Below, in pieces: positions 1,321 to 17,173 of a DNA stretch of 64,000 nucleotides; within the stretch, counting starts at the first letter, position 1; every line of letters begins with the position of its first letter. Source of the stretch: a virus; the IMG/VR virus record IMGVR_UViG_3300029959_000004, positions 32,001 through 96,000 of that record; one strand, 5' to 3'. The notes under the pieces are model-generated. The model was not told the origin of the DNA. It saw nothing but the letters and a program-made list of their open reading frames with translations, and ran no database searches. The translations under genes and the position numbers were made by a program.

Positions 1321-1349
1321 ATTATATCATATAAAAATATATTTGTCAA
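1321..1349 (-). promoter_or_regulatory. consensus sigma70 promoter with extended -10
   Basis: Minus strand TTGACA-17 nt-TATAAT, with TG at the extended -10 position. Confidence 0.8.
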
Positions 1350-1633
1350 GAAGTTTCTCTCATAAACTTAACTATTCCAAATTCTCTTACAATTCTTTTC
1401 TTTCTCTCAATCAATTCTATTTCATCAATCCAAAGACCTCTAGCAGATAAAAGAGATTTTTCAATATCTAAATGAACAAATTTTTCTATTCTTAGGGAAG
1501 AATATCTGTAAGCGTCTCCCACATATGTAACTTTTCCTATTTTCCCCGATAATAGTTTGCTATTACTAGAACAATAAGTATTATGTTGAGAAAATTTTAC
1601 TCTTACTATGTCTCCAATTTTAAATTTATACAT
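1346..1633 (-). CDS. KOW/SH3-like small protein with conserved C-terminal tag
   Basis: FKIGDIV N-terminus; ends IVREFGIVKFMRETS. Confidence 0.75.
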   Translation of the reverse strand: MYKFKIGDIVRVKFSQHNTYCSSNSKLLSGKIGKVTYVGDAYRYSSLRIEKFVHLDIEKSLLSARGLWIDEIELIERKKRIVREFGIVKFMRETS

Positions 1634-1762
1634 TTTCTAGTTTTATATAAACTCTTTTTAATAATTCTTTAAAAAGTTCTCTTCCAATAGAATCTTTTCT
1701 TAATTTTGTTTCTGTCTCTTTCCATACGTCTAACACTGCTTTTGCGTTGTCTTTAGACATTC

Positions 1763-2005
1763 TTACTCCTTCTTAGTTGTATTTTTCATAAAAGCAACTA
1801 TTGGATATTCTTTTATTATCTTCTTATAAGGAGATACTAATATCCAATTATATTCACAAGTACATCCTTCATCTTTATCTTGTCCTATCTTGTATGTTTT
1901 TAATATATTTTTATCATATTTAATAAGAGTATATATAATATCGGGACACGCTCCGCTACAGAAATTTTTTACTCTTACTTTATCTCCCGCTTTAAATTTA
2001 TACAT
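1763..2005 (-). CDS. KOW/SH3-like small protein with C-terminal tag
   Basis: FKAGDKV; ends IIKEYPIVAFMKNTTKKE; paralog of 9979..10242. Confidence 0.75.
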   Translation of the reverse strand: MYKFKAGDKVRVKNFCSGACPDIIYTLIKYDKNILKTYKIGQDKDEGCTCEYNWILVSPYKKIIKEYPIVAFMKNTTKKE

Positions 2006-2261
2006 AGTATTTTTTACAAAATTTAACTATTTCATAAGGTTGTGTTATCTTTTTATGTTCTTTTATCAACACACATTCATCTACGTACATAAATGTCAAC
2101 ATATATTCGTTAGTAGGATTTTTATATATTGTTTTTGCTCTTTTTATACTATCTGCCCAAAATCCCCATATTTTATTCCTATCTATTTTAACTATAATAC
2201 AGTAAGATTTAGAAGGATATTTATAAGTAATCAAATCACCAATCTTAAATTCACAATTCAT
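1998..2261 (-). CDS. KOW/SH3-like small protein with C-terminal tag
   Basis: FKIGDLI; ends ITQPYEIVKFCKKYYV; paralog of 3016..3306. Confidence 0.75.
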   Translation of the reverse strand: MNCEFKIGDLITYKYPSKSYCIIVKIDRNKIWGFWADSIKRAKTIYKNPTNEYMLTFMYVDECVLIKEHKKITQPYEIVKFCKKYYV

Positions 2262-3001
2262 TAACGACTTCTCCTTCTAGAAGAATAAGCTATATTGTTT
2301 CTAGTTTGAATTCTATTTTCTTCGTATTTAAAATATTCAGCGTATTTCTTTAGTTTTCTATCTTCCAACCCAGGTGCACAGTTAATTTCTAATACGTAAA
2401 GTTTATTGTCTTTACGAATAATATCAACTGCTCCAAAATTTAAATTTAATGTTTTAACTGCTCTCTTAGCTAAATCTATTAAAGAGTGTTTATATTCTCT
2501 ATCATAAGATACCTGAATCCAGCCATTTCTTTTACTTCTTACTACTTTGTTAGCCGTCTCTACTTTAGGTATTTTTACACTAACTATTGTATCATAATCT
2601 CCGAGAATATGTACTCTATATTCACTTGTTTTATCTATATATTGAATTAGATAATCATAATCTCTATTTAATCTATTTAATTCCTCTTGATTTCTAACGA
2701 AAATCACATCTCTTCCTTGAGAATGAAATCTTTTTCTTGCCAATAAAGGGAACATATCATTTGGTATTCTTTCTCCTCTAAGAAAGGTTTTGGGAGTAGA
2801 GATTTCATTGTTTTGCATTATTTTAGACGCTTTATACTTATCAAATTCACAGTTTGCGTTTAAATTCGCTCCAGTAAATTTTCCTCCGTAATTAACTATA
2901 AACTCTCTAAAAGAAGGAATATTAATTTTACTTGTTCTACAATTTAATTCTATCGCTAATTTTTTAGCGGTTATTCCCCCTTTTCTTCTAAAAATAAACA
3001 T
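2261..3001 (-). CDS. RimK-like ATP-grasp ligase
   Basis: DKY...HSQGRDV...LIQYI...EYRVH...LNFGAVDII...YVLEINCAPG. Confidence 0.85.
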   Translation of the reverse strand: MFIFRRKGGITAKKLAIELNCRTSKINIPSFREFIVNYGGKFTGANLNANCEFDKYKASKIMQNNEISTPKTFLRGERIPNDMFPLLARKRFHSQGRDVIFVRNQEELNRLNRDYDYLIQYIDKTSEYRVHILGDYDTIVSVKIPKVETANKVVRSKRNGWIQVSYDREYKHSLIDLAKRAVKTLNLNFGAVDIIRKDNKLYVLEINCAPGLEDRKLKKYAEYFKYEENRIQTRNNIAYSSRRRSR

Positions 3002-3058
3002 ACATTCTCTCCTTTTTAATAATATTTCTTACAGAATTCTACTATACCAAATGGTTTA
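2995..3058. repeat. 64-bp perfect direct repeat, copy 1
   Basis: Identical to 6302..6365; covers tag codons, stop, SD and the next start codon. Confidence 0.95.
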
Positions 3059-3306
3059 ATTATTCTATTTACTAATTTAATTGTACTAAAAGGCATATAT
3101 CCATAAAAAGTTCTAAATTTTTTTTCATTATTATGTTTAAACATATATAAAGCTTCTTTTATTGTGTTTCCCCAATAACCGTACGCTTTGTTTTCTTCAA
3201 TTTCTTTAATTACACAGTATCCTTGCGTACAGTATCCTTGAAAAATATCATCATAAAGAGAAGTTCTTATCTTATAAAAGACAAAGTCACCAATCTTAAA
3301 TTTCAT
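3016..3306 (-). CDS. KOW/SH3-like small protein with C-terminal tag
   Basis: MKFKIGDFV; ends IIKPFGIVEFCKKYY. Confidence 0.75.
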   Translation of the reverse strand: MKFKIGDFVFYKIRTSLYDDIFQGYCTQGYCVIKEIEENKAYGYWGNTIKEALYMFKHNNEKKFRTFYGYMPFSTIKLVNRIIKPFGIVEFCKKYY

Positions 3307-3629
3307 TTATAGTATCTTCTACAAAATTTTACAATACCATATTCTTTGATTGTTTTCTTTATTTCTCTATTAACAATTACAAAACTACCATACCAAGCAC
3401 TAAAATCTCTAAAATCATCGCTTACAGAAGCAAGTAAAGGATTATTTAATCCATCTTCACCGCACATATGATGTCTTGCGGTAGTTTTTAATATTTTATG
3501 TACTTTATATAACTGATTGATTGTTCCATAGTTATCTGTATCATGATAATTAGGAGAAATCCAAGATTTTCTACTAACATATCTAACAATGTCTCCTATT
3601 TTTAAATCTTTTGGATGTACAAATCTCAT
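3303..3629 (-). CDS. KOW/SH3-like small protein with C-terminal tag
   Basis: LKIGDIV; ends TIKEYGIVKFCRRYYK. Confidence 0.75.
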   Translation of the reverse strand: MRFVHPKDLKIGDIVRYVSRKSWISPNYHDTDNYGTINQLYKVHKILKTTARHHMCGEDGLNNPLLASVSDDFRDFSAWYGSFVIVNREIKKTIKEYGIVKFCRRYYK

Positions 3630-3630
3630 A

Positions 3631-4635
3631 TTATTTTTGTGGTAGAGAACCGCTTTCCATATAAGCTTTGTTGCAATCTTTACATATCATTGTTCCTCCC
3701 TCTAGAGAAATTTCTATCATTTCTTTAGTTGGAAAGAACTCTCCACAACTTTCACAACACTGTTCAGATTCTATATCTTCTTCGTTATTTTCTACTAATT
3801 TAATTTCTCCCTTTTTCACAGCTTTTCTACATTTTTTACATAAGTTGAAAGAAATAAAATCTCCTTTTGTTTCAGTTTCAATATCTACCGTCATTACATA
3901 TTTCATCTCATTACATCCTTCACATAAACCTTCAAAAACTACAGATTTGCCTTTGTTATCTACTTTATCTCTCACGGAGCTGTTTGTATTATCATTATAG
4001 TTTTCTTCTCTTTCATAATTATGAAAACCCAACAAACCGGCTCCTCTTTCAAAATAAGAACAAGATTTATAACCACTGTTTGAATAAAATATATTACTTT
4101 CTGTTTCCCAAGCACCAAACTTCTGAATTTCTCCATTGTTGTGCATAATAGCTAACTTATCTCCTTCAATAAATACGTTAATTAGTTTAATTACCGCTTC
4201 ACTGTGAAGATTATTTTTTATTGATTCGTCAGATAAAATATCTAATATAAACTTTTGTGTATCTGAGAATTTTTCGTGATGACCGTAGTTAGTAATTACT
4301 CCATTGTGAGCTACTGCAACTTGACAGATTAACTCCGGTTTTCTTAACAGTTCAGTATTCTTAGTTATAGGAAACGGATGCCTATTTCCTATATCTTTTA
4401 GACCGTGAGTAGCGAATCTAAAATGAATTACTAAAGCGTCTTCTTTAGAGAGATTATCTTTACACCAAGCGATCATATGTTTTGCATTAGTAAAGTCCTT
4501 CTTAATACAAACTTCATTAGAATTTACTTTCCAGTACATAATACCTATTCCGTCACTATTTCTAGTTTCTGCGTATAATAAATAAGCTTCTTTAGGAAAA
4601 TCTACTCCCTTCTCTTTAACAGCAATTAAGCACAT
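3631..4635 (-). CDS. class II (Ntn) glutamine amidotransferase with C-terminal Zn ribbons
   Basis: N-terminal MC; DGIG; HFRFATHG; NRHPF; AHNGVI; SDT; four CxxC pairs at the C-terminus. Confidence 0.85.
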   Translation of the reverse strand: MCLIAVKEKGVDFPKEAYLLYAETRNSDGIGIMYWKVNSNEVCIKKDFTNAKHMIAWCKDNLSKEDALVIHFRFATHGLKDIGNRHPFPITKNTELLRKPELICQVAVAHNGVITNYGHHEKFSDTQKFILDILSDESIKNNLHSEAVIKLINVFIEGDKLAIMHNNGEIQKFGAWETESNIFYSNSGYKSCSYFERGAGLLGFHNYEREENYNDNTNSSVRDKVDNKGKSVVFEGLCEGCNEMKYVMTVDIETETKGDFISFNLCKKCRKAVKKGEIKLVENNEEDIESEQCCESCGEFFPTKEMIEISLEGGTMICKDCNKAYMESGSLPQK

Positions 4636-6308
4636 AATTTTTCTCCTTTCAGATGTTTTAACATTGTTCCATATTTTTCCTGGTCTTTAGCCCAATCTAT
4701 AAACAACTTCCAACTATTTTTTCTATATTCTCTTTCTCCTATTACTAGAGACGTAACTCCAACAACTTTTACAAAATAACTTAGAGCTTCCATAAATTGT
4801 AATATAGCAGTTATTCTTTTTGGATTTAATGTTCCTCTAAACATTCTTATTTCTACAGTATTAGTAGAACTATTCAAATTTAAAGCCCAATATCGACCAC
4901 TTTGAGAGCTATCGTTTAATATATCCTTTGTGTTAATTGTCTCAAATTTACAATAGTTTTCCCCAACTCCCTTTCTTCTAGACAATTCTTTAAGTTTATC
5001 TTCATTTTCTTTAAAGAATAATCTCATTTTGGTAATTTCTAAATCTTCAAAGAAATCTCTTGAGAGATGTATATGTAATCCACATTTACCACTCTCTTCT
5101 GAGGTAAATTCTTGTTCTTTCATCCATCTTAATATCTTGTTTAATTTCATTTCTCTGTGTGCATAAGATAGAGTAAACGGATGAGTAACTATCTCAAAAC
5201 CATTTGGAACGCTTCCATCGTGCTTGAGATAGTAATGTTTTTCTACTTTTTCTTTTTTAAGAAAAGAAATTAATTTTGAAGAAGCTTCTTTTTCTGAAGA
5301 ATCTCTTTGTACCTCTAATTCTAATCCCATAAATAAAGAGGCTTTCTGATCTTCTGAATTTTCCTTCTCCCATTTTAATTTTTTAAATTCTGGAGAGGGT
5401 TTATATGAATAATCGTGAATCAATCTTTCTTCTGCGGTAGAACCCTCTTCAGAATAACAATCTTCACAAAAAAGAAATCCATCACTTTCTCTAGTTCTCA
5501 TATCATCAACACGAAAAGTATCTCCACAGGCGTTGCATACAGAAAATCTTTCACTAAAACAATCACTACAATAAACGTTATCATCCGTTCCCGTGAATAT
5601 TTCACCTGAATGACAATCTAATTCACAATCACAAGAATAACAAGTAGCGAAATTTTCAGAGTAACAATCATCGCAATAACGATCTCCTTCTTCCGAAGTA
5701 AGCAAATCATCAATATAAAAATTTCCCTCACAACACGAACAAGAACCAACTTGTTGATTATAACATTCTTCACACCAAATTTTACCATCAAACTCGTGAG
5801 AACATTCTTCTTTCTCAATATTTTTTTTACACGATGAACATTTTACAATTTCCTTTGTTTTGAGTTTTCTCATGTTTTTCTCCTTTTCAAAAATTATATG
5901 AGCTTCTGTATTGTCTAAATTTATTAACCAAGAATATCTCCACTTGCCCGGTCTTTCTTTAATTCCAGTACCACCGTTAAGAGTATTGTTCCATAAACAG
6001 ATATATTTATTTTCATTTCTAGTAAAAATTTCTCCCACTTTTCCATAAATATATTTTTTATTCGCAATAGTTTCTGTGTCGTTCGCATTAGTTGCAATTA
6101 AATCACCAACGTTTATTTTATTAGAAATCTCATTTATATAGTATTTATTTACCTTCTCAATACCGCACTCATATAATTCTATTTCTAAATCATTTTTAAG
6201 AATACTTGTCAAGTACTTTGTTTCTCCTTCTGTTACTTCAGTTTTTGACAGTATTTTTATCAAAGTACTTTCGTTTTTTATTCTTGCTATTTCTCCCAAT
6301 TTAAACAT
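4626..6308 (-). CDS. putative amidoligase (COOH-NH2 ligase, glutamine-synthetase-like) with four tandem double-CxxC repeats
   Basis: GLELEV, HDGSV, GFEIVTHP, CGLHIHLSR, RYWALN, TVEIRMFRGTLN. Confidence 0.85.
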   Translation of the reverse strand: MFKLGEIARIKNESTLIKILSKTEVTEGETKYLTSILKNDLEIELYECGIEKVNKYYINEISNKINVGDLIATNANDTETIANKKYIYGKVGEIFTRNENKYICLWNNTLNGGTGIKERPGKWRYSWLINLDNTEAHIIFEKEKNMRKLKTKEIVKCSSCKKNIEKEECSHEFDGKIWCEECYNQQVGSCSCCEGNFYIDDLLTSEEGDRYCDDCYSENFATCYSCDCELDCHSGEIFTGTDDNVYCSDCFSERFSVCNACGDTFRVDDMRTRESDGFLFCEDCYSEEGSTAEERLIHDYSYKPSPEFKKLKWEKENSEDQKASLFMGLELEVQRDSSEKEASSKLISFLKKEKVEKHYYLKHDGSVPNGFEIVTHPFTLSYAHREMKLNKILRWMKEQEFTSEESGKCGLHIHLSRDFFEDLEITKMRLFFKENEDKLKELSRRKGVGENYCKFETINTKDILNDSSQSGRYWALNLNSSTNTVEIRMFRGTLNPKRITAILQFMEALSYFVKVVGVTSLVIGEREYRKNSWKLFIDWAKDQEKYGTMLKHLKGEKLCA

Positions 6309-6365
6309 ACATTCTCTCCTTTTTAATAATATTTCTTACAGAATTCTACTATACCAAATGGTTTA
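6302..6365. repeat. 64-bp perfect direct repeat, copy 2
   Basis: Identical to 2995..3058. Confidence 0.95.
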
Positions 6366-6583
6366 CTATATTTATTAATCATTTCTAAATCATCTATAGA
6401 AAAACCTGAACATCTCGTATTATCTCTGAAAAACCTTACCACTATAGAATTTTCTCTTTTATCCATATCTATGTCTTTATGAAGAGCTCCTAACATAAGT
6501 ACTTTTTCTCCCACGCAAGGTAAAGAACAGGGACGAGTACAAAACTTTCCTCTTGTTTTTATTCTAGCTTTGCTATTAATCAT
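6323..6583 (-). CDS. small protein with C-terminal tag
   Basis: Ends SKPFGIVEFCKKYY. Confidence 0.7.
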   Translation of the reverse strand: MINSKARIKTRGKFCTRPCSLPCVGEKVLMLGALHKDIDMDKRENSIVVRFFRDNTRCSGFSIDDLEMINKYSKPFGIVEFCKKYY

Positions 6584-6604
6584 TGTATTGTCTCCAAATT
6601 TAAC

Positions 6605-6665
6605 GAAGAGACCATAATATTCGGATAAGGGAGATATAAGAACCGTAATATTAGAGGGTCTCTTC
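6605..6665. other. intergenic long imperfect hairpin
   Basis: Nested pairs GAAGAGACC/GGTCTCTTC, TAATATT/AATATTA, CGG/CCG. Confidence 0.65.
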
Positions 6666-6669
6666 CTAG

Positions 6670-6927
6670 TTATTTCTTTTCAATAGAACGCATAAATCTA
6701 ACTATACCATATTCTCTTATTATTTTCTTTGTAGAAAGAATAAAAGAATCTTCATACCAACTCCAATTATTCTCCAAAACATTGTAAACTTTTTTTCCGG
6801 GAGCAGTTGGAAAGTTGAATATTTTAGATATGGTAAATGTTTTGCCTATAAATGCGTTCATAATTTTATTCCAATCAAATTTACCTTCTTTTATTATTTT
6901 TATCTTATCTCCAATTTTATATTTCAT
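6670..6927 (-). CDS. KOW/SH3-like small protein with C-terminal tag
   Basis: YKIGDKI; ends IIREYGIVRFMRSIEKK. Confidence 0.75.
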   Translation of the reverse strand: MKYKIGDKIKIIKEGKFDWNKIMNAFIGKTFTISKIFNFPTAPGKKVYNVLENNWSWYEDSFILSTKKIIREYGIVRFMRSIEKK

Positions 6928-7176
6928 TTATTTATAGTTCTTCTTGCACCATTTTGCAATATTATATTCTTTATTTTTTCGTGTATTTACAAGTTTAAAT
7001 CTCCAATCGAAATAATCTTCTATTTGAAGTCTGTCAGAAATAACTTGATAAAATAGAGTATTTCCGCTCATATAACTATTTAAAATAGTATATTCTTTAT
7101 TTATAGTTAACTCACCAATATTAAGCCCACGATTTGAAACACAAATAACCTTAGTGTTTATTTTAAATATTTGCAT
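6928..7176 (-). CDS. SH3-like small protein with C-terminal tag
   Basis: ELTINKEY motif shared with 9754..9972; ends NKEYNIAKWCKKNYK. Confidence 0.7.
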   Translation of the reverse strand: MQIFKINTKVICVSNRGLNIGELTINKEYTILNSYMSGNTLFYQVISDRLQIEDYFDWRFKLVNTRKNKEYNIAKWCKKNYK

Positions 7177-7825
7177 ATTTTAAACTCTTCGCTTTAGAAA
7201 CAAATTTCAATACCCAAAATATATACATTTTCATAGTTTCATAATTTAAAGTTCCATTAAACAATCTAAATTCAAGAGTTTTATAGCTGGAGTTTCTAAT
7301 ACAATCAATATTAAGAGCGTAATATTTTCTATCTTCTCTCCAGAAATCATCTTTGCAATACTTTCTAAACTCTGAAATATTATTTATCGTTAAGTTTTTA
7401 AGATGTTCAGGTAAAGGATGACAATATGAACACAATCTATTCCGTTGTACTTTAAATTTTGTTATAATAGCTTTTTGATTAACTAAAAATCTTTTAATTA
7501 CATTCGTTATTTCTTCGTCTGAAAAGTTTGATATATTAACGTGAATATGTAACCCACAAGTACTATTAATATATCCTTCGTTTGTTTTTATCATTTCTAA
7601 TAATTTTTTGATTTCTAATAACGATTTTTTGTTGTAAAAAAGATAATTTTTATATGAAGGTTTATATTCAAGTCCGTTGTCTAGCGAACCATCTTCTGTT
7701 ATTTCCCATCCTTCTAAGTAATGTTCTCTATTCCAACGTTTATTATTTATTATATCATAAGTATCAATATCGTCAGGATATTCAACCTCTATTTCTGGAC
7801 TAAATCTAATCTGTGTTATTCTCAT
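7163..7825 (-). CDS. second putative amidoligase (COOH-NH2 ligase)
   Basis: PEIEVE, EDGSL, GLEY, CGLHIHVN, KYYALN, TLEFRLFNGTLN. Confidence 0.85.
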   Translation of the reverse strand: MRITQIRFSPEIEVEYPDDIDTYDIINNKRWNREHYLEGWEITEDGSLDNGLEYKPSYKNYLFYNKKSLLEIKKLLEMIKTNEGYINSTCGLHIHVNISNFSDEEITNVIKRFLVNQKAIITKFKVQRNRLCSYCHPLPEHLKNLTINNISEFRKYCKDDFWREDRKYYALNIDCIRNSSYKTLEFRLFNGTLNYETMKMYIFWVLKFVSKAKSLKYANI

Positions 7826-7835
7826 TTCTCTCTCC

Positions 7836-8102
7836 TTATTTTTTATTTATATTATTCATAAAATTCACGATTCCATATGGTTTAATATTTCTTTTAACTA
7901 ATTCTAGATGATGTTCCCAAACACCGTACCTATTTTGTGAGTCCCAATAAATATATGGAGAACAGTTTCTTGTTATGTAAGCTATCTTAAATTTTTTGTT
8001 TAATACCCAACCCGCTCCTCCATAAGAACAGTCATCATCAGATCCTTTAGATGTTAATACACATTTTACTTTATCTCCAATCTTAAATTTGGGGTTATTC
8101 AT
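7836..8102 (-). CDS. KOW/SH3-like small protein with C-terminal tag
   Basis: FKIGDKV; ends IKPYGIVNFMNNINKK. Confidence 0.75.
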   Translation of the reverse strand: MNNPKFKIGDKVKCVLTSKGSDDDCSYGGAGWVLNKKFKIAYITRNCSPYIYWDSQNRYGVWEHHLELVKRNIKPYGIVNFMNNINKK

Positions 8103-8349
8103 AAAATTTCTTACAGAAATTAACTATATTATATGGTTTAATTGTCTTCTTTTTTACTAATACAAAACTATCTTCATTAATCCAATCTTCAAAATCTGGA
8201 TTATCTAAATCTCTAGTTTTTACAGCATCAAAATTATTATATTTTCTTCGTCCTATCTCTGTTATTACAGTTTTTCTCCCTATATTTTCTAGAGAAACAC
8301 CTCTACCACTTCTTATAACTTTTACTATGTCTCCAACTTTAAATTTCAC
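8095..8349 (-). CDS. KOW/SH3-like small protein with C-terminal tag
   Basis: FKVGDIV; ends IKPYNIVNFCKKFYE. Confidence 0.75.
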   Translation of the reverse strand: MKFKVGDIVKVIRSGRGVSLENIGRKTVITEIGRRKYNNFDAVKTRDLDNPDFEDWINEDSFVLVKKKTIKPYNIVNFCKKFYE

Positions 8350-8375
8350 TTAAACTTCTCCTAATCTTAATATAT

Positions 8376-8501
8376 AATCTGACTAAAAAGGTGACTAACT
8401 ACCAATTTTTAGTTCTTATCGTGCTTTATATCAACTGATGTTGATAAAGGCGAGCAGAACCTTTTTAGTTTCGTTAGATTTTCACTAACTCTTCAGAGAT
8501 T
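8376..8501 (-). ncRNA. hammerhead ribozyme, type I, with large insertion in stem III
   Basis: AAUCU-CUGAAGA-GUUAG(ugaaaau)CUAAC-GAAA-CUAAAAAGGU...ACCUUUUUAG-UC^-AGAUU; predicted cut between 8381 and 8380. Confidence 0.85.
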
Positions 8502-8873
8502 TTACGCTTTTACCAAGCGTTCCGAAGTCCATTCAGAATCAATTAATGACATTTCATCATCTGTGATAGATTGAGTATCCTCTACAGGATGAAATCCATT
8601 AGTTACTTCTCCTATTGAAACATCAAGAAGAGCAACTAATTTTCCTGAACGAATTAGCTGATATTTTCTATCATCAGAATCTTTTAAGACGTCTCCCGCT
8701 TTGAAAGTAACAATCTCCGGTACTAACTCAAATCTTGAAGCTTTAAAAGACACCTCTCTTCCAGCTTCGTTAATAATAACGAAGTTGCCATTTTCCTTCT
8801 GACGAATTACGTCATAAGTCTTACCAATCGCTAAATCTCTTGTTCCAGTTACATAAATAACTTTAACTTTCAT
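8502..8873 (-). CDS. tandem SH3/KOW-like domain protein (no tag)
   Basis: LAIGKTYDVI...SRFELV followed by FKAGDVL. Confidence 0.65.
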   Translation of the reverse strand: MKVKVIYVTGTRDLAIGKTYDVIRQKENGNFVIINEAGREVSFKASRFELVPEIVTFKAGDVLKDSDDRKYQLIRSGKLVALLDVSIGEVTNGFHPVEDTQSITDDEMSLIDSEWTSERLVKA

Positions 8874-8913
8874 TTCTTCCTCCTCTTTTGTTACTGGTTA
8901 ATAATAAATCATC

Positions 8914-9330
8914 TTATAGATGATCTGTTTTTCTCATTTCCTTTAGAAGCTTAACTATACCTAACCTATTTTTAGCTTCCATTAACTGCATTAACTTTTC
9001 CGCAAGATAGTCTTCTTCTGTTTCATATTTCTCTAAGAATTCTATCTCCCTTTCATTCTCCTCTACTTGTTTCTTTAATACATTAACTAAATTCTTTAAG
9101 TATTTAGCTTTTTCCTTTCTAGAAGCTAGACAGAAATCGTCTTTTTTATATCCTTCATAATCATAGAATATATTAAAAGTTGTATTTTTGTCACTTTTTA
9201 CAGAATAATATCCAACGTAGACCGCAGTAATTATTAAAACTTGTCCTTCATAACCAACAGTACCACTGTTTCTTCCTTTTATTAAAAGAATCTTGTCACC
9301 AACACTAAATTTATCTAAATCATTATCCAT
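8914..9330 (-). CDS. KOW-like domain plus coiled-coil protein
   Basis: FSVGDKI; C-terminal heptad-rich region. Confidence 0.6.
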   Translation of the reverse strand: MDNDLDKFSVGDKILLIKGRNSGTVGYEGQVLIITAVYVGYYSVKSDKNTTFNIFYDYEGYKKDDFCLASRKEKAKYLKNLVNVLKKQVEENEREIEFLEKYETEEDYLAEKLMQLMEAKNRLGIVKLLKEMRKTDHL

Positions 9331-9406
9331 TTTATCTCCTTTTCTTTACAGTTAATAATATATAACTTTTATTTAGTAGTGTCTCACTTTATTCCTCCTT
9401 TCAATA

Positions 9407-9742
9407 TTAAAACCAAAATATAGGTCTATATATCGCATTTGGTAAACATCTTTGCATATTCTTTGCACCTATTGGATTACAACTATGTATTATTATTTTA
9501 CAGGTTAGATTTTTATCTTCAAGATATTTAGCTACCTGATAACCCGTATTTTCATCGTTTGAGTTGACAAATATTCTATTTCCTAAATCGTGATCTAAAC
9601 ATATTAAATCCCAATTTAAATCTCTTTTTAGAATATTAATAGCGTCTTTAGCTGTTTTGACAAATGTTATATTATGCCCAACATATTTTCTAGAGAAAGA
9701 ATCGTGTCTTGTTTGCATATCGTCAAGAAATAGAATTTTCAT
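9407..9742 (-). CDS. cyclic-phosphate-processing receiver-like domain protein
   Basis: LFLDD...CLDHDLG...TGYQVA...IHSCNPIG signature. Confidence 0.75.
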   Translation of the reverse strand: MKILFLDDMQTRHDSFSRKYVGHNITFVKTAKDAINILKRDLNWDLICLDHDLGNRIFVNSNDENTGYQVAKYLEDKNLTCKIIIHSCNPIGAKNMQRCLPNAIYRPIFWF

Positions 9743-9753
9743 TTAATTCTCCT

Positions 9754-9972
9754 TCATTTATCATACATTTTTTTACAAAATTTAGATATTTCAAACTCTT
9801 TAACTGTATTTTTTTCTTTTATAAGAGAAAATCTAAAAGACATATAACCATATTTTCTACCAAGATTGTTTATTATATAAACCATATCGTCGGATTTTGA
9901 CAAAACATAATAGATTTTATTTATAGTTAATTCAATCCCACGTCCTGAATTATCTTTACATTTAACTTTCAT
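9754..9972 (-). CDS. SH3-like small protein with C-terminal tag
   Basis: Ends TVKEFEISKFCKKMYDK. Confidence 0.7.
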   Translation of the reverse strand: MKVKCKDNSGRGIELTINKIYYVLSKSDDMVYIINNLGRKYGYMSFRFSLIKEKNTVKEFEISKFCKKMYDK

Positions 9973-9978
9973 ATGTTT

Positions 9979-10242
9979 TTAAAGAGATTTAATTAAATCA
10001 CCTCTCATAAAAGCTACTATCGGATATTCTCTGATAACTTTATTTTTTTCTATCAACTTCCAATTATTCAGGCAAGAACAACCACAATCGTGAGTGACTT
10101 CTGTCATTCTTCTTTGATTACTTGCATATAATATTTTACTTTCTTTAACCAATAAGTATCTTAGAGTGTAAATCTGTCCTTCCTTCGCTCCTGAACAATC
10201 AGACAATATTCTTATTTTATCTCCCTCTTTAAACTCTCGCAT
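9979..10242 (-). CDS. KOW/SH3-like small protein with C-terminal tag
   Basis: FKEGDKI; ends VIREYPIVAFMRGDLIKSL. Confidence 0.75.
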   Translation of the reverse strand: MREFKEGDKIRILSDCSGAKEGQIYTLRYLLVKESKILYASNQRRMTEVTHDCGCSCLNNWKLIEKNKVIREYPIVAFMRGDLIKSL

Positions 10243-10495
10243 TTACATTCTCCAAGAATTTTACTATGGGAAACGGTTTAATAACTTTCTTTTTCTTTTC
10301 AATTAATTCTATCATAAATTCTTTAATTAAATCACCCGTTTTTTCTTCGTGATTATAACTTGAATCCCATATTATAATATATTCATAAACGGAAAAGTAT
10401 CTTACGATAGTTCCTGTCCATCCTGTTTGAGCATAAGGTAGCCAAAGATCGTATGATATTACTACCTTTACTCGGTCTCCTTTTTTAAATTTCAT
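10229..10495 (-). CDS. KOW/SH3-like small protein with C-terminal tag
   Basis: FKKGDRV; ends VIKPFPIVKFLENVNARV. Confidence 0.75.
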   Translation of the reverse strand: MKFKKGDRVKVVISYDLWLPYAQTGWTGTIVRYFSVYEYIIIWDSSYNHEEKTGDLIKEFMIELIEKKKKVIKPFPIVKFLENVNARV

Positions 10496-10754
10496 AGTAT
10501 TCTCTATAATAACTCTTTACTAGATTAAAATTAAAACTATTTATAAATCCATCTAGCATATCGAACCAACAATTAAAAAATCGCTGTAGTTTAGTGGGAA
10601 TTATTTTATATATAATCCAATGTATAAATTCATGAATAAAAGTTTCTATATAATCTATTCCTTTCATATCTTCTCTTATATAGATAGTTTCTTCATCTAA
10701 ATAACCATAAACATTAATATTTTCTTTACTCTTTCTGAAGAGTTGTACACGCAT
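10485..10754 (-). CDS. small HExxH metallopeptidase-like protein
   Basis: IYIRE...TFIHEFIHW. Confidence 0.55.
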   Translation of the reverse strand: MRVQLFRKSKENINVYGYLDEETIYIREDMKGIDYIETFIHEFIHWIIYKIIPTKLQRFFNCWFDMLDGFINSFNFNLVKSYYREYYEI

Positions 10755-11247
10755 TAGACTTCTCCATAATTATTTTATAAAGTTTTTCATTAGATTTATC
10801 TAACTCTTTAACTTTATCAGTTAATTCTTGTATTTTTTCAGTTAATATTTCTACCGAACGTCTTTGATTTACACCAACTTTATTTTGTCTTAATTCATAT
10901 ATTTCTATTTGTTTTAAACTATTTTCCATATCTAAATCTTTGCATCCACTTAATAAAAACAAAGATAATATTATAAAGGCGATTTTCTTAGTTGTTTCTC
11001 TCATAAATCTGACTATTTCATATTCTCTTATTATTTTCTTTTTCTCAACTAATTCTAAATCACTCTCTAAAAAACCGGAGCATCCTCCAGCTTTCTTCTC
11101 AAAATTAGATACATAAACATAACAATCATAGATTTTCGGATTACTGACTATTCCTATTAAACCAACAAATGGGCAAAAATCACCACATACAAAACAATCA
11201 TTTTTTTTAACAACCTTTACTTTATCTCCAGTCTTAAATTTGCTCAT
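10726..11247 (-). CDS. KOW-like tagged protein fused in frame to a lipoprotein-like coiled coil
   Basis: Likely start MSKFKTGDKV at 11247; internal IIREYEIVRFMRETT, then KKIAFIILSLFLLSGC (lipobox). Confidence 0.65.
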   Translation of the reverse strand: MSKFKTGDKVKVVKKNDCFVCGDFCPFVGLIGIVSNPKIYDCYVYVSNFEKKAGGCSGFLESDLELVEKKKIIREYEIVRFMRETTKKIAFIILSLFLLSGCKDLDMENSLKQIEIYELRQNKVGVNQRRSVEILTEKIQELTDKVKELDKSNEKLYKIIMEKSNACTTLQKE

Positions 11248-11392
11248 TTTATATATATTACAACACTTTTCCAAGATAAATCTTTTAATCTTTTTATTTC
11301 ATCTATCGCCCATCTAATAAAATCTTCACATTCTGACTGATTATCAAAATTTGCATATCCTTTTTTAAATACCCAATCATAATCTGCCATTT

Positions 11393-11665
11393 TTATCCTC
11401 CTACAGCACAATTTCCACAATCAAAATACATACTTGTATTAGTTTCTCTTCTATCTTTACTTCTTTCAGTATCTATAAAATCTTGCATATTTATAGATAA
11501 CTCTGCTACATTAGTCTCACAATCCGAACATTTAAAATTTATTTTTGTTTTAAGTTCCTTCAACATATCTTTTGGTATATTCTTTAATTTTACATATATT
11601 CTATTTATACCAAACTCGTCTCTACCAATTTTACCAATAAAAGTTTTTAACCCTTTTCCTCTCAT
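11393..11665 (-). CDS. Zn-ribbon hypothetical protein
   Basis: CSDC and CGNC. Confidence 0.55.
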   Translation of the reverse strand: MRGKGLKTFIGKIGRDEFGINRIYVKLKNIPKDMLKELKTKINFKCSDCETNVAELSINMQDFIDTERSKDRRETNTSMYFDCGNCAVGG

Positions 11666-12021
11666 TTTCTTTTTCTCCTCTTCTCATATATATAAATGAC
11701 TAAATAATTATATCTTCCTTCTAAACTTTTATCTATCTGCTCGGGACCAAAACCGCCTACAGAACCAAACAAATGTGCTTCTAATAATTCAATAAGAGCC
11801 TCAGCTTTTGCTGAATATTCTGCGACGCTTTGTGCCCAATCAACTTCAATATGTTGTCTCCACTGATTTATTTGTTGTATATCGTCTTTTATGTCTTTTA
11901 GAATTTTAACAAGAGGAATGCTCATATCTTTATTCATTTTTTCTCTACCACAACCAGTACAAATATTCTTACCTTTTTTATTTCTTTTGATTCCAACCCA
12001 ATTTGTGCAATTACAAGTCAT
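11662..12021 (-). CDS. hypothetical protein with N-terminal Cys cluster
   Basis: ORF track; SD present. Confidence 0.55.
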   Translation of the reverse strand: MTCNCTNWVGIKRNKKGKNICTGCGREKMNKDMSIPLVKILKDIKDDIQQINQWRQHIEVDWAQSVAEYSAKAEALIELLEAHLFGSVGGFGPEQIDKSLEGRYNYLVIYIYEKRRKRK

Positions 12022-12203
12022 TTTATTCTCCTTTTATATACTTGTGTAATATGGGTTATTCTCCTATAAACCAAATTCTTTTGAAGCCAACCCACCAAGA
12101 CGGTTTAGATTCCATAAACTTTCCGCAATGTAGACATCGTAACCAGAAACCTCCCGAAAATCTAACATCCAAATGTAAACAGTTTGTCATCTAAGTCTTC
12201 TTT

Positions 12204-12530
12204 TTAAAATTTAGCAAATCTTTCTATTATACTTTTAGCGTGATGTTGTCTATCCTCATATTTATCACTTCTATACATCAATTCATACCACCACATCATA
12301 GCTTTGTAAGTCCTACCTAATTCTTTAGCTAAATCAAAGAGTTTTTCTTCTTCCTTTATTTCATTAGAAGTTTTTGACTTGAATCTCTCTATTTCCCAGT
12401 CTTCTATAGGTTCCTTAAATCTATCTGCTGTTAAAATAGATTCCTTCTGATAGTTTCTCTTCATATTTCTTTTACCTAAGAACATGGACGCTGTTATCAT
12501 TATTTTAATGATATTTTTCAATAGAAACAA
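12204..12530 (-). CDS. hypothetical protein
   Basis: ORF track; start uncertain. Confidence 0.5.
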   Translation of the reverse strand: MFLLKNIIKIMITASMFLGKRNMKRNYQKESILTADRFKEPIEDWEIERFKSKTSNEIKEEEKLFDLAKELGRTYKAMMWWYELMYRSDKYEDRQHHAKSIIERFAKF

Positions 12531-12720
12531 CAGTTTCCAAAACTTCTTCTAAATGATATTTATCCTTTTTCCAGATAAAATCTCCACATGAGCTAATATA
12601 ATATGTATTTATTTTAATCCATTTAATTTCTTTGTTTTCAATAGCTCTAACTAAATCTTTTAGAATATTTCTTTTAAATCCTTTTATTTTAACATTGTTT
12701 AAATTTTTGGGAAATGCCAT
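12505..12720 (-). CDS. hypothetical protein
   Basis: ORF track; starts 1 nt after the rtcB stop. Confidence 0.5.
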   Translation of the reverse strand: MAFPKNLNNVKIKGFKRNILKDLVRAIENKEIKWIKINTYYISSCGDFIWKKDKYHLEEVLETVVSIEKYH

Positions 12721-12721
12721 A

Positions 12722-14968: not shown

Positions 14969-14988
14969 TTTATATTCTCCTCTTTAGA

Positions 14989-15246
14989 TTAGTTTTTAGA
15001 ATCTTGATGTGAAATTCTATATTCCCAATTCCACCAATCTTCTATAGTTCCTACATAAAATGTACCTTTTCTTTCTACAAAACACAGCCACGCTTTAACT
15101 TCTCTTTTATCTTTTGTAATATCTACAACTATAGGAAACCAAGCAAACCACTTGTGCCATTCTTCAAGTTTTTTTATTTCTTTATCTTTAATTTCTTTTT
15201 TCAATCTTACTATATTTTCTTTTGTATAACCATTAGTCCAAATCAT
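14989..15246 (-). CDS. Trp-rich hypothetical protein
   Basis: WHKWFAWFP motif; its SD lies inside hammerhead stem III. Confidence 0.65.
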   Translation of the reverse strand: MIWTNGYTKENIVRLKKEIKDKEIKKLEEWHKWFAWFPIVVDITKDKREVKAWLCFVERKGTFYVGTIEDWWNWEYRISHQDSKN

Positions 15247-15247
15247 C

Positions 15248-15310
15248 TATTCTCCTTTCGGGCTTATTTAATGCCCTCATCAGTTAATGAATTACATTAA
15301 GAGGAACAAT
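15248..15310 (-). ncRNA. hammerhead ribozyme, type III
   Basis: UUCC-UC^-UUAAUG(uaauu)CAUUAA-CUGAUGA-GGGC(auuaaauaa)GCCC-GAAA-GGAG; predicted cut between 15301 and 15300. Confidence 0.9.
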
Positions 15311-15322
15311 CTAAGTAGTAGA
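15306..15322. repeat. 17-bp perfect inverted repeat, arm 1
   Basis: ACAATCTAAGTAGTAGA is the reverse complement of 15834..15850. Confidence 0.9.
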
Positions 15323-15326
15323 TTTT

Positions 15327-15815
15327 TTAGAAATAACTCTCCATTGTCAATAGACCGCCAACAAAAAACACAAAACCTAAAAATAACCAACACAAAATAA
15401 CTATTTCTCGTCTTTCTATTCCATAACAACCACGAAACACACTATCTATATCTCCCAAAGTATGATCCATCTCTTGACCGCTTATTTGATACATAGCTTG
15501 TTGATATTCAAGAGATTTTTCTTTCATTCTAGAAGTTGTTTCTAGTCTGCTTATTAAAGTATCTAATATCTTTAATTGAGTAGATTTAGTCATTCTTTCC
15601 GTTTTAAAGATATAGTTAGCATGTTCTTCGCTAATATTACTAACTTTTTCTCTGTATTCCTTAAAATACATCAGTTTATCTTTAGCTGTTGAAGCGTCAT
15701 CCGCTAATTTTAAGAACTGTTTATATTTTACCTCGTAGTTATATGCAATATCAACTCCGAGAATTGTTCCTAAAACAAAAAACAATATTGCAAGACCAAA
15801 TAATAGAAATTTCAT
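15327..15815 (-). CDS. two-TM membrane protein
   Basis: Hydrophobic N- and C-terminal helices. Confidence 0.7.
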   Translation of the reverse strand: MKFLLFGLAILFFVLGTILGVDIAYNYEVKYKQFLKLADDASTAKDKLMYFKEYREKVSNISEEHANYIFKTERMTKSTQLKILDTLISRLETTSRMKEKSLEYQQAMYQISGQEMDHTLGDIDSVFRGCYGIERREIVILCWLFLGFVFFVGGLLTMESYF

Positions 15816-15833
15816 TCTTATCTCCTTTTTTGG

Positions 15834-15850
15834 TCTACTACTTAGATTGT
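15834..15850. repeat. 17-bp perfect inverted repeat, arm 2
   Basis: TCTACTACTTAGATTGT. Confidence 0.9.
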
Positions 15851-15858
15851 CAAAGAAC
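15847..15858 (-). promoter_or_regulatory. boxA-like (NusB/NusE) element
   Basis: GTTCTTTGACAA, intergenic; a near-identical copy lies at 23051..23062. Confidence 0.6.
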
Positions 15859-15867
15859 CAAACTTAT

Positions 15868-16194
15868 TTACAAACAGATAGCTTGATGTGTTTTTTCATA
15901 TTCTTCCACGAACTTACATATTATAGTTCCATAGTCTCCTTCTATTCTCTCATTAGTATCTTTCTTAACAATAGACCAAGTTACAACCTGATGTTGTAAG
16001 TAGTTTTTATACTCCATTCTTTGTAGCATTATGTTATTATCCGTAAGAATATGAAAATTCTTTCTATCTCTCATTGCCATTTTCTGTGTTCCCATATAAA
16101 TTTTCCAAGCGTGTTCTTTTGCTCTTGCTAAAACCACATCAATTTGTTGCTTTTCTGTCAGGTTATTTAGCTTATTTACAACGTTTTGATCCAT
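15868..16194 (-). CDS. hypothetical protein
   Basis: ORF track; SD AGGAGG. Confidence 0.6.
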   Translation of the reverse strand: MDQNVVNKLNNLTEKQQIDVVLARAKEHAWKIYMGTQKMAMRDRKNFHILTDNNIMLQRMEYKNYLQHQVVTWSIVKKDTNERIEGDYGTIICKFVEEYEKTHQAICL

Positions 16195-16209
16195 TTTACT
16201 TCCTCCTAT

Positions 16210-16437: not shown

Positions 16438-16572
16438 ACTCTCTTTCTAATTTAACTATCTCTTCCTCTAATAAAATCTTCTCGTCTTCTGTTAAATCCT
16501 TAAAAATTACGTGAGCCTCTTTCATTAACTTAATAATATTTCCAACTTTTTCCATTTTTATTCTCCTTAATT

Positions 16573-16798: not shown

Positions 16799-17173
16799 TT
16801 AACTGACTGATTCCACCTTCTTTTCTACACCACTTAACAATTTCTCAATGGTGGTCTGTATCTTCGCTCTCAAAGCACCTCCAAAAAGAAAATGATCCAA
16901 TAAAACAACAACACCTACGGTTAAAATAATATCCTGATGATCTTCGTAATACTTTTTCAGACTTTTTAACATTTTTATTTCTCCTTTCGATTTATTTACG
17001 TATTCTAAATCTTCGTCATCCCACCGATAAGAACTTCCTGTTTTTGCTGTAGCGATAACTCTACCATAAATATCAATGTAATCAACTACAATTATGTCTC
17101 CAATAGTTGCAGCGACTTGCCCATTACTCTTTCCTATAACTCTTAAAACATCTCCTTTTTTAAATACAGACAT
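16799..17173 (-). CDS. KOW-like domain protein with hydrophobic C-terminal segment
   Basis: FKKGDVL; ILTVGVVVLL. Confidence 0.6.
   Translation of the reverse strand: MSVFKKGDVLRVIGKSNGQVAATIGDIIVVDYIDIYGRVIATAKTGSSYRWDDEDLEYVNKSKGEIKMLKSLKKYYEDHQDIILTVGVVVLLDHFLFGGALRAKIQTTIEKLLSGVEKKVESVS

What the first reader, a model, noticed from the sequence alone, without database searches (positions are those of the whole stretch)
1346..11247. Array of 14 small proteins with variable SH3/KOW-like bodies and one shared C-terminal tag
Seen: 14 ORFs (starts 1346, 1763, 1998, 3016, 3303, 6323, 6670, 6928, 7836, 8095, 9754, 9979, 10229, 10726) carry roughly (K/R)(E/P)(Y/F)xIVxF(C/M)(K/R) after a Lys-rich linker; it is terminal in 13 and internal in 10726. 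Most begin FKxGDxV. The bodies fall into different subtypes (1763~9979, 1998~3016, 6928~9754), but the tag is kept. The Ile-Val codons vary synonymously (ATAGTT, ATAGTA, ATTGTA, ATCGTG, ATAGTC), so selection looks protein-level. Inference: a common docking, sorting, packaging or modification signal on a diversified library of binders, for example anti-defence or host-takeover effectors. KOW-like neighbours without the tag (8502, 8914, 16799) are natural controls.
Basis: partly seen in the sequence, partly recalled or inferred. Interest (0 to 1): 0.85.

Follow-up and report, generated by a model that had tools for sequence, protein, structure and literature searches.

The report
Phage small-protein family with shared tail
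An uncultured 109-kb phage carries about 20 copies of a previously undescribed small protein whose two ends are kept constant while its middle differs. The copies are woven between the genes of a peptide-ligase enzyme set of unknown role, which makes them candidate substrates or adaptors of those enzymes.

Summary
All 14 ORFs exist on the minus strand and carry the motif (14 matches against 0.02 expected). Six more members lie just upstream of the window, giving 20 in the genome.

The conservation acts on the protein: pN/pS is 0.06-0.11 at Y/F, I and F, while third codon positions vary.

The bodies are not unrelated. All belong to one SH3-like family with no Pfam, NCBIfam or annotated PHROG match. 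In this family the first strand (FKxGDxV) and the C-terminal Lys-rich linker plus a 10-residue amphipathic helix are constant. The rest of the barrel is at random-level identity between paralogues (23% vs 21% for shuffled bodies) but 40-68% between orthologues in other phages.

A profile search gave 775 hits. About 78 of the best 150 are small proteins and nearly all carry the tail. All sampled ones come from metagenomes; none was found in GenBank phages or GTDB genomes.

In every relative recovered, the genes are interleaved in the same order with a RimK-like ATP-grasp, a class-II GATase and amidoligases.

Best reading, by inference: the constant ends form a shared handle, most likely coupling the proteins to this enzyme set. 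No partner was shown. The scan had already noted this same stretch in another window (e1-6040459, e1-6040471).

The parts
1346..1633 (-). family member, 95 aa, tail ...REFGIVKFMRETS (M-type)
   Evidence: family HMM 79 bits; orthologue P0024 at 59% identity
1763..2005 (-). family member, 80 aa, four-Cys body, tail KEYPIVAFMKN
   Evidence: orthologue P0057 at 63%
1998..2261 (-). family member, 87 aa, tail QPYEIVKFCKKYYV; its start overlaps the ATP-grasp stop
3016..3306 (-). family member, 96 aa, tail KPFGIVEFCKKYY; 14 nt upstream of the ATP-grasp start
   Evidence: (99-nt junction repeated at 6278-6376)
3303..3629 (-). family member, 108 aa, tail KEYGIVKFCRRYYK; directly downstream of the GATase gene
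6323..6583 (-). family member, 86 aa, degenerate N-terminus, tail KPFGIVEFCKKYY; 14 nt upstream of the large amidoligase
6670..6927 (-). family member, 85 aa, tail REYGIVRFMRSIEKK; the member that was folded
   Evidence: barrel residues 1-66, helix 74-83, pLDDT 83.7; PetP Z 8.7
6928..7176 (-). family member, 82 aa, variant body (LTINK type), tail KEYNIAKWCKKNYK; directly downstream of the small amidoligase
7836..8102 (-). family member, 88 aa, tail KPYGIVNFMNNINKK; directly upstream of the small amidoligase
   Evidence: orthologue in L091 at 42%
8095..8349 (-). family member, 84 aa (GTG start), tail KPYNIVNFCKKFYE
   Evidence: orthologue P0027 at 46%
9754..9972 (-). family member, 72 aa, variant body, tail KEFEISKFCKKMYDK
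9979..10242 (-). family member, 87 aa, four-Cys body, tail REYPIVAFMRGDLIKSL
   Evidence: (body 39% identical to 1763)
10229..10495 (-). family member, 88 aa, tail KPFPIVKFLENVNARV (L-type)
   Evidence: orthologue P0005 at 68% over the full length
10726..11247 (-). family member fused in frame to a lipoprotein-signal-like segment and a coiled coil; tail internal
   Evidence: 77 bits; no Shine-Dalgarno seen by eye before the internal ATG (codons)
8914..9330 (-). family-type body, then about 60 aa of coiled coil, then a degenerate tail RLGIVKLLKEM
   Evidence: 21 bits for the body; tail aligned weakly
16799..17173 (-). family-type body, then a linker-like KGEIK...KKYY, then a hydrophobic segment
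8502..8873 (-). two SH3-like domains without the tail
   Evidence: weak: 13 bits
2261..3001 (-). RimK-like ATP-grasp ligase, 246 aa
   Evidence: ATP-grasp_3 45.6 bits, RimK 38.1 bits, both above cut-off; closest solved chains 7QYS/7QYR, deposited as 'probable alpha-L-glutamate ligase', E 1.5e-5; orthologues at 51-57%
3631..4635 (-). class-II (Ntn, Cys2) glutamine amidotransferase-like protein with C-terminal Cys-rich region
   Evidence: GATase_6 24 bits, below the cut-off of 27; begins MC...; orthologues at 42-58%
4626..6308 (-). large amidoligase: N-terminal family-like SH3 domain(s), four CxxC...CxxC modules (LIM-like), Amidoligase_2 domain
   Evidence: Amidoligase_2 39.4 bits, LIM 25.9 bits; hhalign: family body aligns to residues 1-54, probability 70%, E 4e-5; orthologues at 40-43%
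7163..7825 (-). small stand-alone Amidoligase_2, 220 aa
   Evidence: 75.3 bits; orthologue fragment in L054 at 50%
11244..11420 (-). small, strongly conserved ORF (DYDWVF..FDNQSECEDFIRWAI); lies directly upstream of the ATP-grasp gene in relatives
   Evidence: 69-83% identity over 35 aa

Best explanation
This is one previously undescribed family of small (70-110 aa), signal-less phage proteins.

Each member is an SH3-like beta-barrel. Its first strand (FKxGDxV) and its C-terminal element are held constant. That element is a Lys-rich linker plus a 10-residue amphipathic helix, consensus KKxIKx[YF]GI[VA]KF[CML]. The remainder of the barrel has diverged into about 20 ancient paralogues per genome, and each paralogue is conserved in its own orthologues.

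Shown here: the family, its arrays, protein-level purifying selection on the tail, and its fixed interleaving with a RimK-like ATP-grasp, a class-II GATase and two amidoligases in every relative recovered.

Inferred:
1. The constant N-terminal strand and C-terminal helix form a common 'handle' that contacts one shared partner.
2. The variable part gives each paralogue its own specificity.
3. The most likely shared partner is the co-encoded ligase set, with the small proteins acting as its protein substrates, carriers or target adaptors.

My odds: about 0.95 for a real family under selection, about 0.45 for a handle that binds a shared partner, and about 0.25-0.3 for that partner being the ligase cassette.
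For: Motif count: 14 in the window against 0.02 by chance; 20 in the genome.

Selection: pN/pS is 0.06 at I, 0.09 at F and 0.11 at Y/F, with synonymous differences near saturation, over 43 genes from 9 sources.

Conservation pattern between paralogues: tail 47% and head 43% identical; body 23% against 21 +/- 5% for shuffled bodies. Orthologues elsewhere are 40-68% identical over their full length.

Fold: SH3-like barrel over residues 1-66 plus helix 74-83, mean pLDDT 83.7 and 89 on the helix; PetP Z 8.7, KOW Z 7.5.

No curated family: Pfam, NCBIfam and PDB sequence profiles do not cover the tail; PHROGs gives only weak matches to families of unknown function.

Wider family: 775 profile hits. 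About 78 of the best 150 are small proteins, and nearly all carry both the head and the tail.

Synteny:
- 8 of 9 metagenome loci that hold members also hold cassette enzymes (40-58% identity) in the same order.
- In the IMG/VR relative L214, all four members found in 20.7 kb sit between or next to the large amidoligase, GATase and ATP-grasp genes.

Domain hint: the large amidoligase begins with a family-like body without the tail (hhalign 70%, E 4e-5).

Enzyme family: the closest solved relatives of the ATP-grasp are 7QYS/7QYR (E 1.5e-5), and it passes the Pfam RimK model. RimK, and by established knowledge its relative LysX, act on the C-terminal tails of small proteins.
Against: No physical or predicted contact with any partner was obtained.

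All loci with context belong to one phage lineage, so the synteny may simply be inherited.

In the window's genome, 14 of the 20 members are not directly next to a cassette gene, and the array reaches well beyond the cassette.

The amidoligase/GATase/ATP-grasp cassette occurs in LUZ24-like and other phages (PMC3890496, PMC10580990). The two family members used as tblastn queries found no relative in GenBank phages, so the cassette apparently works there without the family.

The residues after the helix, including the last one, are not conserved, unlike the acidic tails that RimK or LysX use.

The confident AlphaFold helix and the strictly conserved hydrophobic face would also fit a helix that merely packs on its own barrel.
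Confidence: 0.42

Rival explanations
1. Structural element only. The linker and helix are the C-terminal cap of this SH3-like fold, as in YorP-like small proteins. They are conserved, together with strand 1, because they build the hydrophobic core. There is no common partner: the paralogues are independent effectors, and their position among the ligase genes is a historical accident of tandem duplication.
For: The helix is modelled with pLDDT 89 and the linker with 80, with no disordered stretch. The tail never appears on an unrelated fold in the data at hand. The conserved positions are mainly the hydrophobic face I, V, F, C/M/L. The model aligns to YorP (2HEQ) over residues 1-82, Z 6.4.
Against: The tail is far better conserved than the barrel it would pack on: 47% against a random-level 23%. 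Exposed Lys positions of the linker are also constrained, with pN/pS 0.25-0.33. ORF 8914 keeps a tail-like end after a 60-aa coiled-coil insertion, and two members carry extensions after the tail. The interleaving with the enzymes is kept at 40-57% enzyme identity.
Confidence: 0.3
2. Membrane-targeting sequence. The polybasic linker and the aromatic, basic amphipathic helix lie in the plane of the inner membrane leaflet, as the C-terminal helices of MinD or FtsA do. They concentrate the 20 SH3-like binders at the membrane.
For: The tail is C-terminal, basic, amphipathic and rich in F/Y/W. In 16799 a tail-like stretch is followed directly by a hydrophobic segment, and in 10726 by a signal-like hydrophobic segment. 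Secondary citations of Iyer et al. 2009 link the phage amidoligase/GATase pair to cell-wall modification (PMC10580990, PMC11318856).
Against: I (41 of 43) and F (40 of 43) are almost invariant, whereas lipid-binding helices usually tolerate swaps among hydrophobic residues. AlphaFold places the helix confidently with the domain. The hydrophobic run in 10726 is only about 14 residues and ends in a lipobox, so it looks like a lipoprotein signal of a fused downstream gene rather than an anchor.
Confidence: 0.12
3. Docking onto another hub, such as the phage's own sliding clamp (a PIP-box-like reading of x[YF]xIVxF[CM]), a host hub protein, or the procapsid (a cargo-loading peptide for packaging).
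For: It is a short hydrophobic motif after a basic linker at the C-terminus. A gp44-like clamp-loader gene and a sigma-like gene lie just downstream of the array, with an unmatched ORF between them that may be a clamp.
Against: There is no Gln at position 1. No other ORF in the genome, including the replication genes, carries the motif (tail HMM, next best E 0.2). The genes sit in the early/replication block on the strand opposite to the virion genes, which argues against packaging.
Confidence: 0.1
4. A nucleotide-level signal, such as a promoter, ribosome site or recombination site embedded in gene ends, that imposes the amino-acid motif.
For: The tails lie just before the next gene's start. 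One 99-nt junction is duplicated at 85% identity.
Against: Third codon positions vary freely while the amino acids stay: V uses GTT/GTA/GTG/GTC, I uses ATA/ATT/ATC, G uses GGT/GGA/GGC. pN/pS is far below 1 at the key codons. Promoter-like sites are no more frequent than in shuffles.
Confidence: 0.02

Closest known systems
RimK / LysX-type ATP-grasp ligases with their small protein substrates (ribosomal protein S6; carrier protein LysW)
   Same: A RimK-like ATP-grasp gene (Pfam RimK 38 bits; closest solved chains 7QYS/7QYR) sits between genes for small proteins that share a conserved C-terminal region. By established knowledge, these ligases recognise and extend the C-terminal tails of small proteins.
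   Different: S6 and LysW end in acidic residues that are the site of ligation. Here the last residues vary (YY, YYK, ETS, NKK...), the conserved part is a hydrophobic helix, there are about 20 different proteins, and no modification has been shown.
Phage amidoligase / class-II GATase / ATP-grasp cassette (Iyer et al. 2009; seen in LUZ24-like, phiEco32-like, HMO-2011-type and OM43 phages)
   Same: The same three enzyme families lie in one early-gene block (PMC3890496, PMC10580990).
   Different: In those phages the cassette is described without this small-protein family, and two members used as queries found no relative in GenBank phages. Here every enzyme gene is flanked by members, and the large amidoligase has extra SH3-like and LIM-like modules.
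Viral adaptor multigene families with a constant docking box and variable binding domain (poxvirus ankyrin/PRANC F-box-like proteins)
   Same: By analogy only: many paralogues per genome, a variable binding part, a short constant C-terminal element, and a link to a ligase system.
   Different: There is no sequence or fold relation, and docking to the ligases has not been shown. The comparison rests on my own knowledge, not on a test.
Small SH3-like/KOW/Tudor-like proteins (PetP, PsaE, ribosomal L24, B. subtilis SPbeta YorP)
   Same: The barrel fold: PetP Z 8.7, KOW Z 7.5, L24 Z 7.3; YorP Z 6.4 with the alignment running into the C-terminal helix. Profile matches to PsaE and the HERC2 Mib domain cover the body only.
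   Different: No sequence family is shared. None of these carries the linker-helix motif, and none forms arrays of paralogues.
RiPP precursor arrays (for example prochlorosin or graspetide precursors next to their modifying enzyme)
   Same: Multiple genes with a constant recognition segment and a variable part lie next to an ATP-grasp ligase.
   Different: The variable part here is a folded 60-residue domain conserved in orthologues, not a short core peptide. The constant segments lie at both ends, and the ATP-grasp is a minimal RimK-like enzyme.

Membership tests
SH3-like / KOW / Tudor beta-barrel fold (body) | Small five-stranded barrel superposable on known SH3-like domains | tested here: met
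   AlphaFold models, pLDDT 74.8 and 83.7. VIA-align: PetP Z 8.7 (61 residues, 1.8 A), KOW Z 7.5, L24 Z 7.3, all over model residues 1-66.
Pfam KOW, SH3 or any curated domain family (Pfam, NCBIfam) | Score above the curated cut-off of a family model | tested here: not met
   No Pfam hit reached its cut-off for 10 window members or 4 outside members. There were no NCBIfam hits. PHROGs gave only weak hits to families of unknown function, over the body.
Phage amidoligase/GATase/ATP-grasp cassette (neighbours) | Amidoligase_2, class-II GATase and ATP-grasp genes together in one block | tested here: met
   ATP-grasp_3 45.6 bits (cut-off 23.2) and Amidoligase_2 75.3 and 39.4 bits (cut-off 22). GATase_6 scored 24 bits, below its cut-off of 27, but an N-terminal Cys2 is present.
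RimK/LysX-type protein-tail ligation system | ATP-grasp of the RimK family | tested here: met
   Pfam RimK 38.1 bits against a cut-off of 21. Closest solved chains are 7QYS/7QYR ('probable alpha-L-glutamate ligase'), E 1.5e-5.
RimK/LysX-type protein-tail ligation system | Substrate protein ends in conserved acidic residue(s) that accept the ligation | tested here: not met
   The C-terminal residues differ between members (Y, K, V, E, S, L).
RimK/LysX-type protein-tail ligation system | Enzyme binds and modifies the small protein | not testable with these tools
   This needs co-expression and mass spectrometry.
PIP-box / clamp-binding motif | Qxx[ILM]xx[FY][FY]-like motif shared by the clamp's clients (polymerase and others) | tested here: not met
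   Position 1 is E/P/V, not Q. No other genome ORF matches the tail HMM; the next best E is 0.2.
C-terminal amphipathic membrane-targeting helix (MinD/FtsA type) | Terminal, basic, amphipathic helix whose hydrophobic residues are interchangeable | tested here: inconclusive
   The tail is amphipathic and basic, but I and F are nearly invariant. Lipid binding cannot be tested here.
RiPP precursor with recognition sequence | Short unstructured precursor with a leader or follower bound by the modifying enzyme | tested here: not met
   The proteins are folded 70-110 aa domains whose variable part is conserved in orthologues. Adjacency to an ATP-grasp gene is met.
Pup-like conjugated tag | Disordered small protein ending in GGQ or GGE, ligated by a glutamine-synthetase-like ligase | tested here: not met
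   The proteins are folded barrels with variable ends. Only the presence of amidoligase genes is shared.

The most novel reading that the evidence does not exclude
The roughly 20 SH3-like proteins are the missing protein partners of the phage amidoligase/GATase/ATP-grasp cassette, whose function is still described as unknown in the recent papers I read (PMC10580990, PMC11318856). The constant tail would dock each of them to the ligases. They would then be either modified themselves, as carrier or substrate proteins in the manner of LysW or S6, or present different host or phage targets for modification, as a substrate-receptor library like the F-box proteins of ubiquitin ligases. That would amount to a phage-encoded protein-tagging system.
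Probability: 0.22. Interest if true: 0.85.

Novelty: new variant of a known kind. Interest (0 to 1): 0.6.

Why it matters
Small accessory proteins make up much of the unexplained content of phage genomes. Here about 20 of them per genome turn out to be one family with a clear design: constant ends and a variable middle that is nonetheless conserved between orthologues. That is the signature of a set of specific binders on a common scaffold.

Their fixed position between the genes of the amidoligase/GATase/ATP-grasp cassette gives that widespread but unexplained phage enzyme set its first candidate protein partners. All components are small, soluble-looking proteins that can be co-expressed in E. 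coli and checked by mass spectrometry, so the question becomes directly testable even though the host is unknown.

If the link fails, the family remains a new, compact SH3-like scaffold with natural diversity.

Tried and rejected
Complex prediction
- I folded the large amidoligase, the ATP-grasp and the tailed protein together, each with its own alignment. The score was 0.00 against a mark of 0.32 and the verdict was 'no answer'. This counts neither for nor against binding.

Searches for relatives that gave little or nothing
- GenBank phages: no DNA match and no protein match to the tail.
- IMG/VR: the DNA patterns for IVxFCKKYY and [YF]GIVKFCK gave only chance matches. Family and tail alignments as queries gave nothing usable. 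The large amidoligase as a single query gave nothing. Only the ATP-grasp alignment brought in a relative, L214.
- GTDB genomes: 79 pattern matches, none a family member.
- The word-index search found only 7 proteins, showing that it under-samples this family. The tail-only profile against longer proteins found no tail on another domain, which is weak evidence because long proteins crowd the candidate list.
- ESM Atlas: only unnamed viral clusters. BFVD fold search: many uncharacterised small SH3-like phage proteins, none informative.

- The genome search does not hold the record behind L214.

Readings considered and rejected
- A nucleotide-level signal, on the codon data.
- A PIP-box.
- A Pup-like tag and classic RiPP precursors (see the membership tests).
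- Virion packaging, on gene position alone, so only weakly.

Full report
**Where the window lies.** The window is bases 32001-96000 of a 109,385-bp IMG/VR virus record with direct terminal repeats. G+C is about 29%. The finding lies in a long minus-strand block of early and replication-type genes. Virion genes, including a tape measure and a fibre, are on the plus strand further on. No GenBank phage resembles it at the DNA level.

- All 14 ORFs are present on the minus strand and carry the motif.
- A regex for the motif matches 14 times in the six-frame translation, all in these ORFs. Nucleotide and amino-acid shuffles each gave a mean of 0.02 matches.
- The motif is internal only in 10726-11247. 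There the Met of '...FMRETT' is followed in frame by KKIAFIILSLFLLSGC, a lipoprotein-type signal, and then a coiled coil.
- A tail HMM run on the whole genome found six more members just left of the window, at genome 28.6-31.3 kb. One of them (31031) is degenerate and one (30447) has a 33-aa extension.
- The family therefore has 20 members over 14.7 kb, and no other ORF in the genome matches.

**Selection acts on the protein.**
- I collected 43 members with DNA: 19 from this genome and 24 from eight metagenome loci.
- The key codons show pN/pS of 0.06 (Ile), 0.09 (Phe), 0.11 (Tyr/Phe), 0.33 (Val) and 0.25-0.33 (linker Lys).
- Variable positions inside the tail sit near 1, and synonymous differences are near saturation.
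- Val uses GTT, GTA, GTG and GTC; Ile uses ATA, ATT and ATC.
- Promoter-like sites are no more frequent than in shuffles.
- A nucleotide-level signal is therefore rejected.

**One family, not a tag on unrelated bodies.**
- Member 6670-6927 folds as an SH3-like barrel (residues 1-66), a linker, and a helix at 74-83. Mean pLDDT is 74.8 with 14 aligned sequences and 83.7 with 73. The helix reaches 89 and no stretch falls under 50.
- The barrel superposes on PetP (Z 8.7), a KOW domain (Z 7.5) and L24 (Z 7.3). Nearly all matches stop at residue 66. Only YorP of prophage SPbeta runs into the helix (Z 6.4).
- Between the 19 full-length paralogues that carry the motif, the 13-residue tail core is 47% identical and the first 12 residues are 43% identical. 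The body is 23% identical, the same as shuffled bodies at 21 +/- 5%.
- The bodies are not drifting freely, however. Most paralogues have full-length orthologues in other metagenomic phages at 40-68% identity (10229 with P0005 at 68%, 1763 with P0057 at 63%, 1346 with P0024 at 59%).
- These are therefore ancient paralogues, each kept by selection.

**Distribution.**
- Pfam, NCBIfam and PDB sequence profiles do not cover the tail. PHROGs gives only weak body matches to families of unknown function.
- A HMMER profile of the 20 sequences against 1.84 billion representatives gave 775 hits. About 78 of the best 150 are proteins of 71-109 aa, and nearly all have both FKxGDxV and the tail, with consensus KKxIKx[YF]GI[VA]KF[CML].
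- The roughly 70 long hits are generic tandem SH3-like repeats without the tail.
- The ten sampled small ones are mostly single sequences from ENA, JGI or Logan contigs, and none has a functional name.
- None was found in GenBank phages or in GTDB species genomes.

**Context.** Inside the array lie five other annotated genes:
- a RimK-like ATP-grasp (2261-3001);
- a class-II GATase-like gene starting MC... (3631-4635);
- a large amidoligase with LIM-like zinc modules (4626-6308);
- a small amidoligase (7163-7825);
- a cREC domain gene (9407-9742).

This enzyme trio is a known phage cassette of unknown role (PMC3890496, PMC10580990, PMC11318856, all citing Iyer et al. 2009, which I could not read).

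**The interleaving is conserved.**
- A DNA-pattern scan of metagenome contigs returned nine loci with true members, 26 in all, in arrays of up to six.
- Eight of the nine also carry orthologues of the cassette enzymes at 40-58% identity, in the same order. Examples: small amidoligase, three members, then large amidoligase in L054; member, ATP-grasp, then three members in L069.
- An IMG/VR relative found through the ATP-grasp (L214) has four members in 20.7 kb, and all four sit between or beside the three enzyme genes.
- The large amidoligase itself starts with a family-like body that lacks the tail (hhalign probability 70%, E 4e-5).
- The closest solved relatives of the ATP-grasp are 7QYS/7QYR, deposited as 'probable alpha-L-glutamate ligase' (E 1.5e-5). 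It also passes the Pfam RimK model. By established knowledge, RimK extends the C-terminal tail of ribosomal protein S6.

**Interpretation.**
- Shown: a new family, its expansion, selection on its two ends, and its conserved interleaving with the ligase genes.
- Inferred: the two constant ends, which adjoin in an SH3-like barrel, form a common handle, and the variable remainder gives specificity.
- The most specific candidate partner is the ligase cassette, with the small proteins acting as its substrates, carriers or target adaptors.

Several points count against this reading:
- All context comes from one phage lineage.
- Most members in this genome are not adjacent to an enzyme gene.
- The cassette is described in other phages without this family, and two members used as queries found none in GenBank phages.
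- The last residues are not conserved.
- A confidently modelled helix with an invariant hydrophobic face would equally fit a purely structural cap.

A membrane-binding helix remains possible, because a tail-like stretch precedes a hydrophobic segment in 16799 and in 10726. It is weakened by the near-invariance of Ile and Phe.

As a precedent for SH3-like phage binders, the counter-defence protein Nip of phage phi3T has two predicted SH3-like domains (PMC11984713). That is a lead, not a test.

**Limits.** The host is unknown.

**Earlier notes of this scan.** The scan had already noted this same stretch from another window (e1-6040459, e1-6040471). My results agree with both.

Noticed in passing
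window 10726-11247 (-): The tail of this member runs in frame into a lipoprotein-type signal (MRETTKKIAFIILSLFLLSGC, with a lipobox LSGC) and a coiled coil. Either a stop codon was lost and two genes fused, or a lipoprotein is also made from the internal ATG. I saw no Shine-Dalgarno sequence before that ATG.
   Followed up: partly
window 2971-3069 and 6278-6376: A 99-nt stretch is repeated at 85% identity. It covers a tail end, a 14-nt spacer with the ribosome site, and the first codons of the next gene (ATP-grasp in one copy, large amidoligase in the other). This suggests recent gene conversion.
   Followed up: partly
window 11244-11420 (-): A small ORF is 69-83% identical over 35 aa to ORFs in L091, L129 and L214, making it the best-conserved protein of the region. 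In those relatives it lies directly upstream of the ATP-grasp gene.
   Followed up: partly
window 10485-10754 (-): An 89-aa ORF with an HExxH motif (IHEFIH) lies between two family members and has no Pfam match. It may be a minimal metalloprotease.
   Followed up: no
window 9407-9742 (-) and 12722-14968 (-): A cyclic-phosphate-processing receiver (cREC) domain gene (71.5 bits) lies near a 748-aa ORF that reads by eye like RtcB. It looks split by an intein-like insert, because tblastn to L091 matches residues 1-86 and 411-478 only.
   Followed up: no
window 8000-17000: Other notes of this scan report three hammerhead ribozymes at 8376-8501, 15248-15310 and 16573-16632. Rfam found nothing there at the gathering score (1-24000) or at E <= 1 (8000-17000).
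   Followed up: partly
window 1349-1321 (-): A perfect sigma-70 consensus (TTGACA, 17 nt, TG, TATAAT; 12 of 12) starts at the stop codon of member 1346-1633.
   Followed up: no
genome 25.9-29.8 kb (L012 5937-9735, left of the window): Downstream of the array, in the direction of transcription, lie an integrase-sized ORF without a Pfam match, a sigma-70 region-4 protein, a 237-aa ORF with no clear match that may be a clamp, a gp44-like clamp loader and an endonuclease VII.
   Followed up: partly
whole record: The window's own proteins are listed on three contigs, the longest of 419,765 bp, although the record is 109 kb. This may reflect a concatemeric or larger assembly elsewhere.
   Followed up: no
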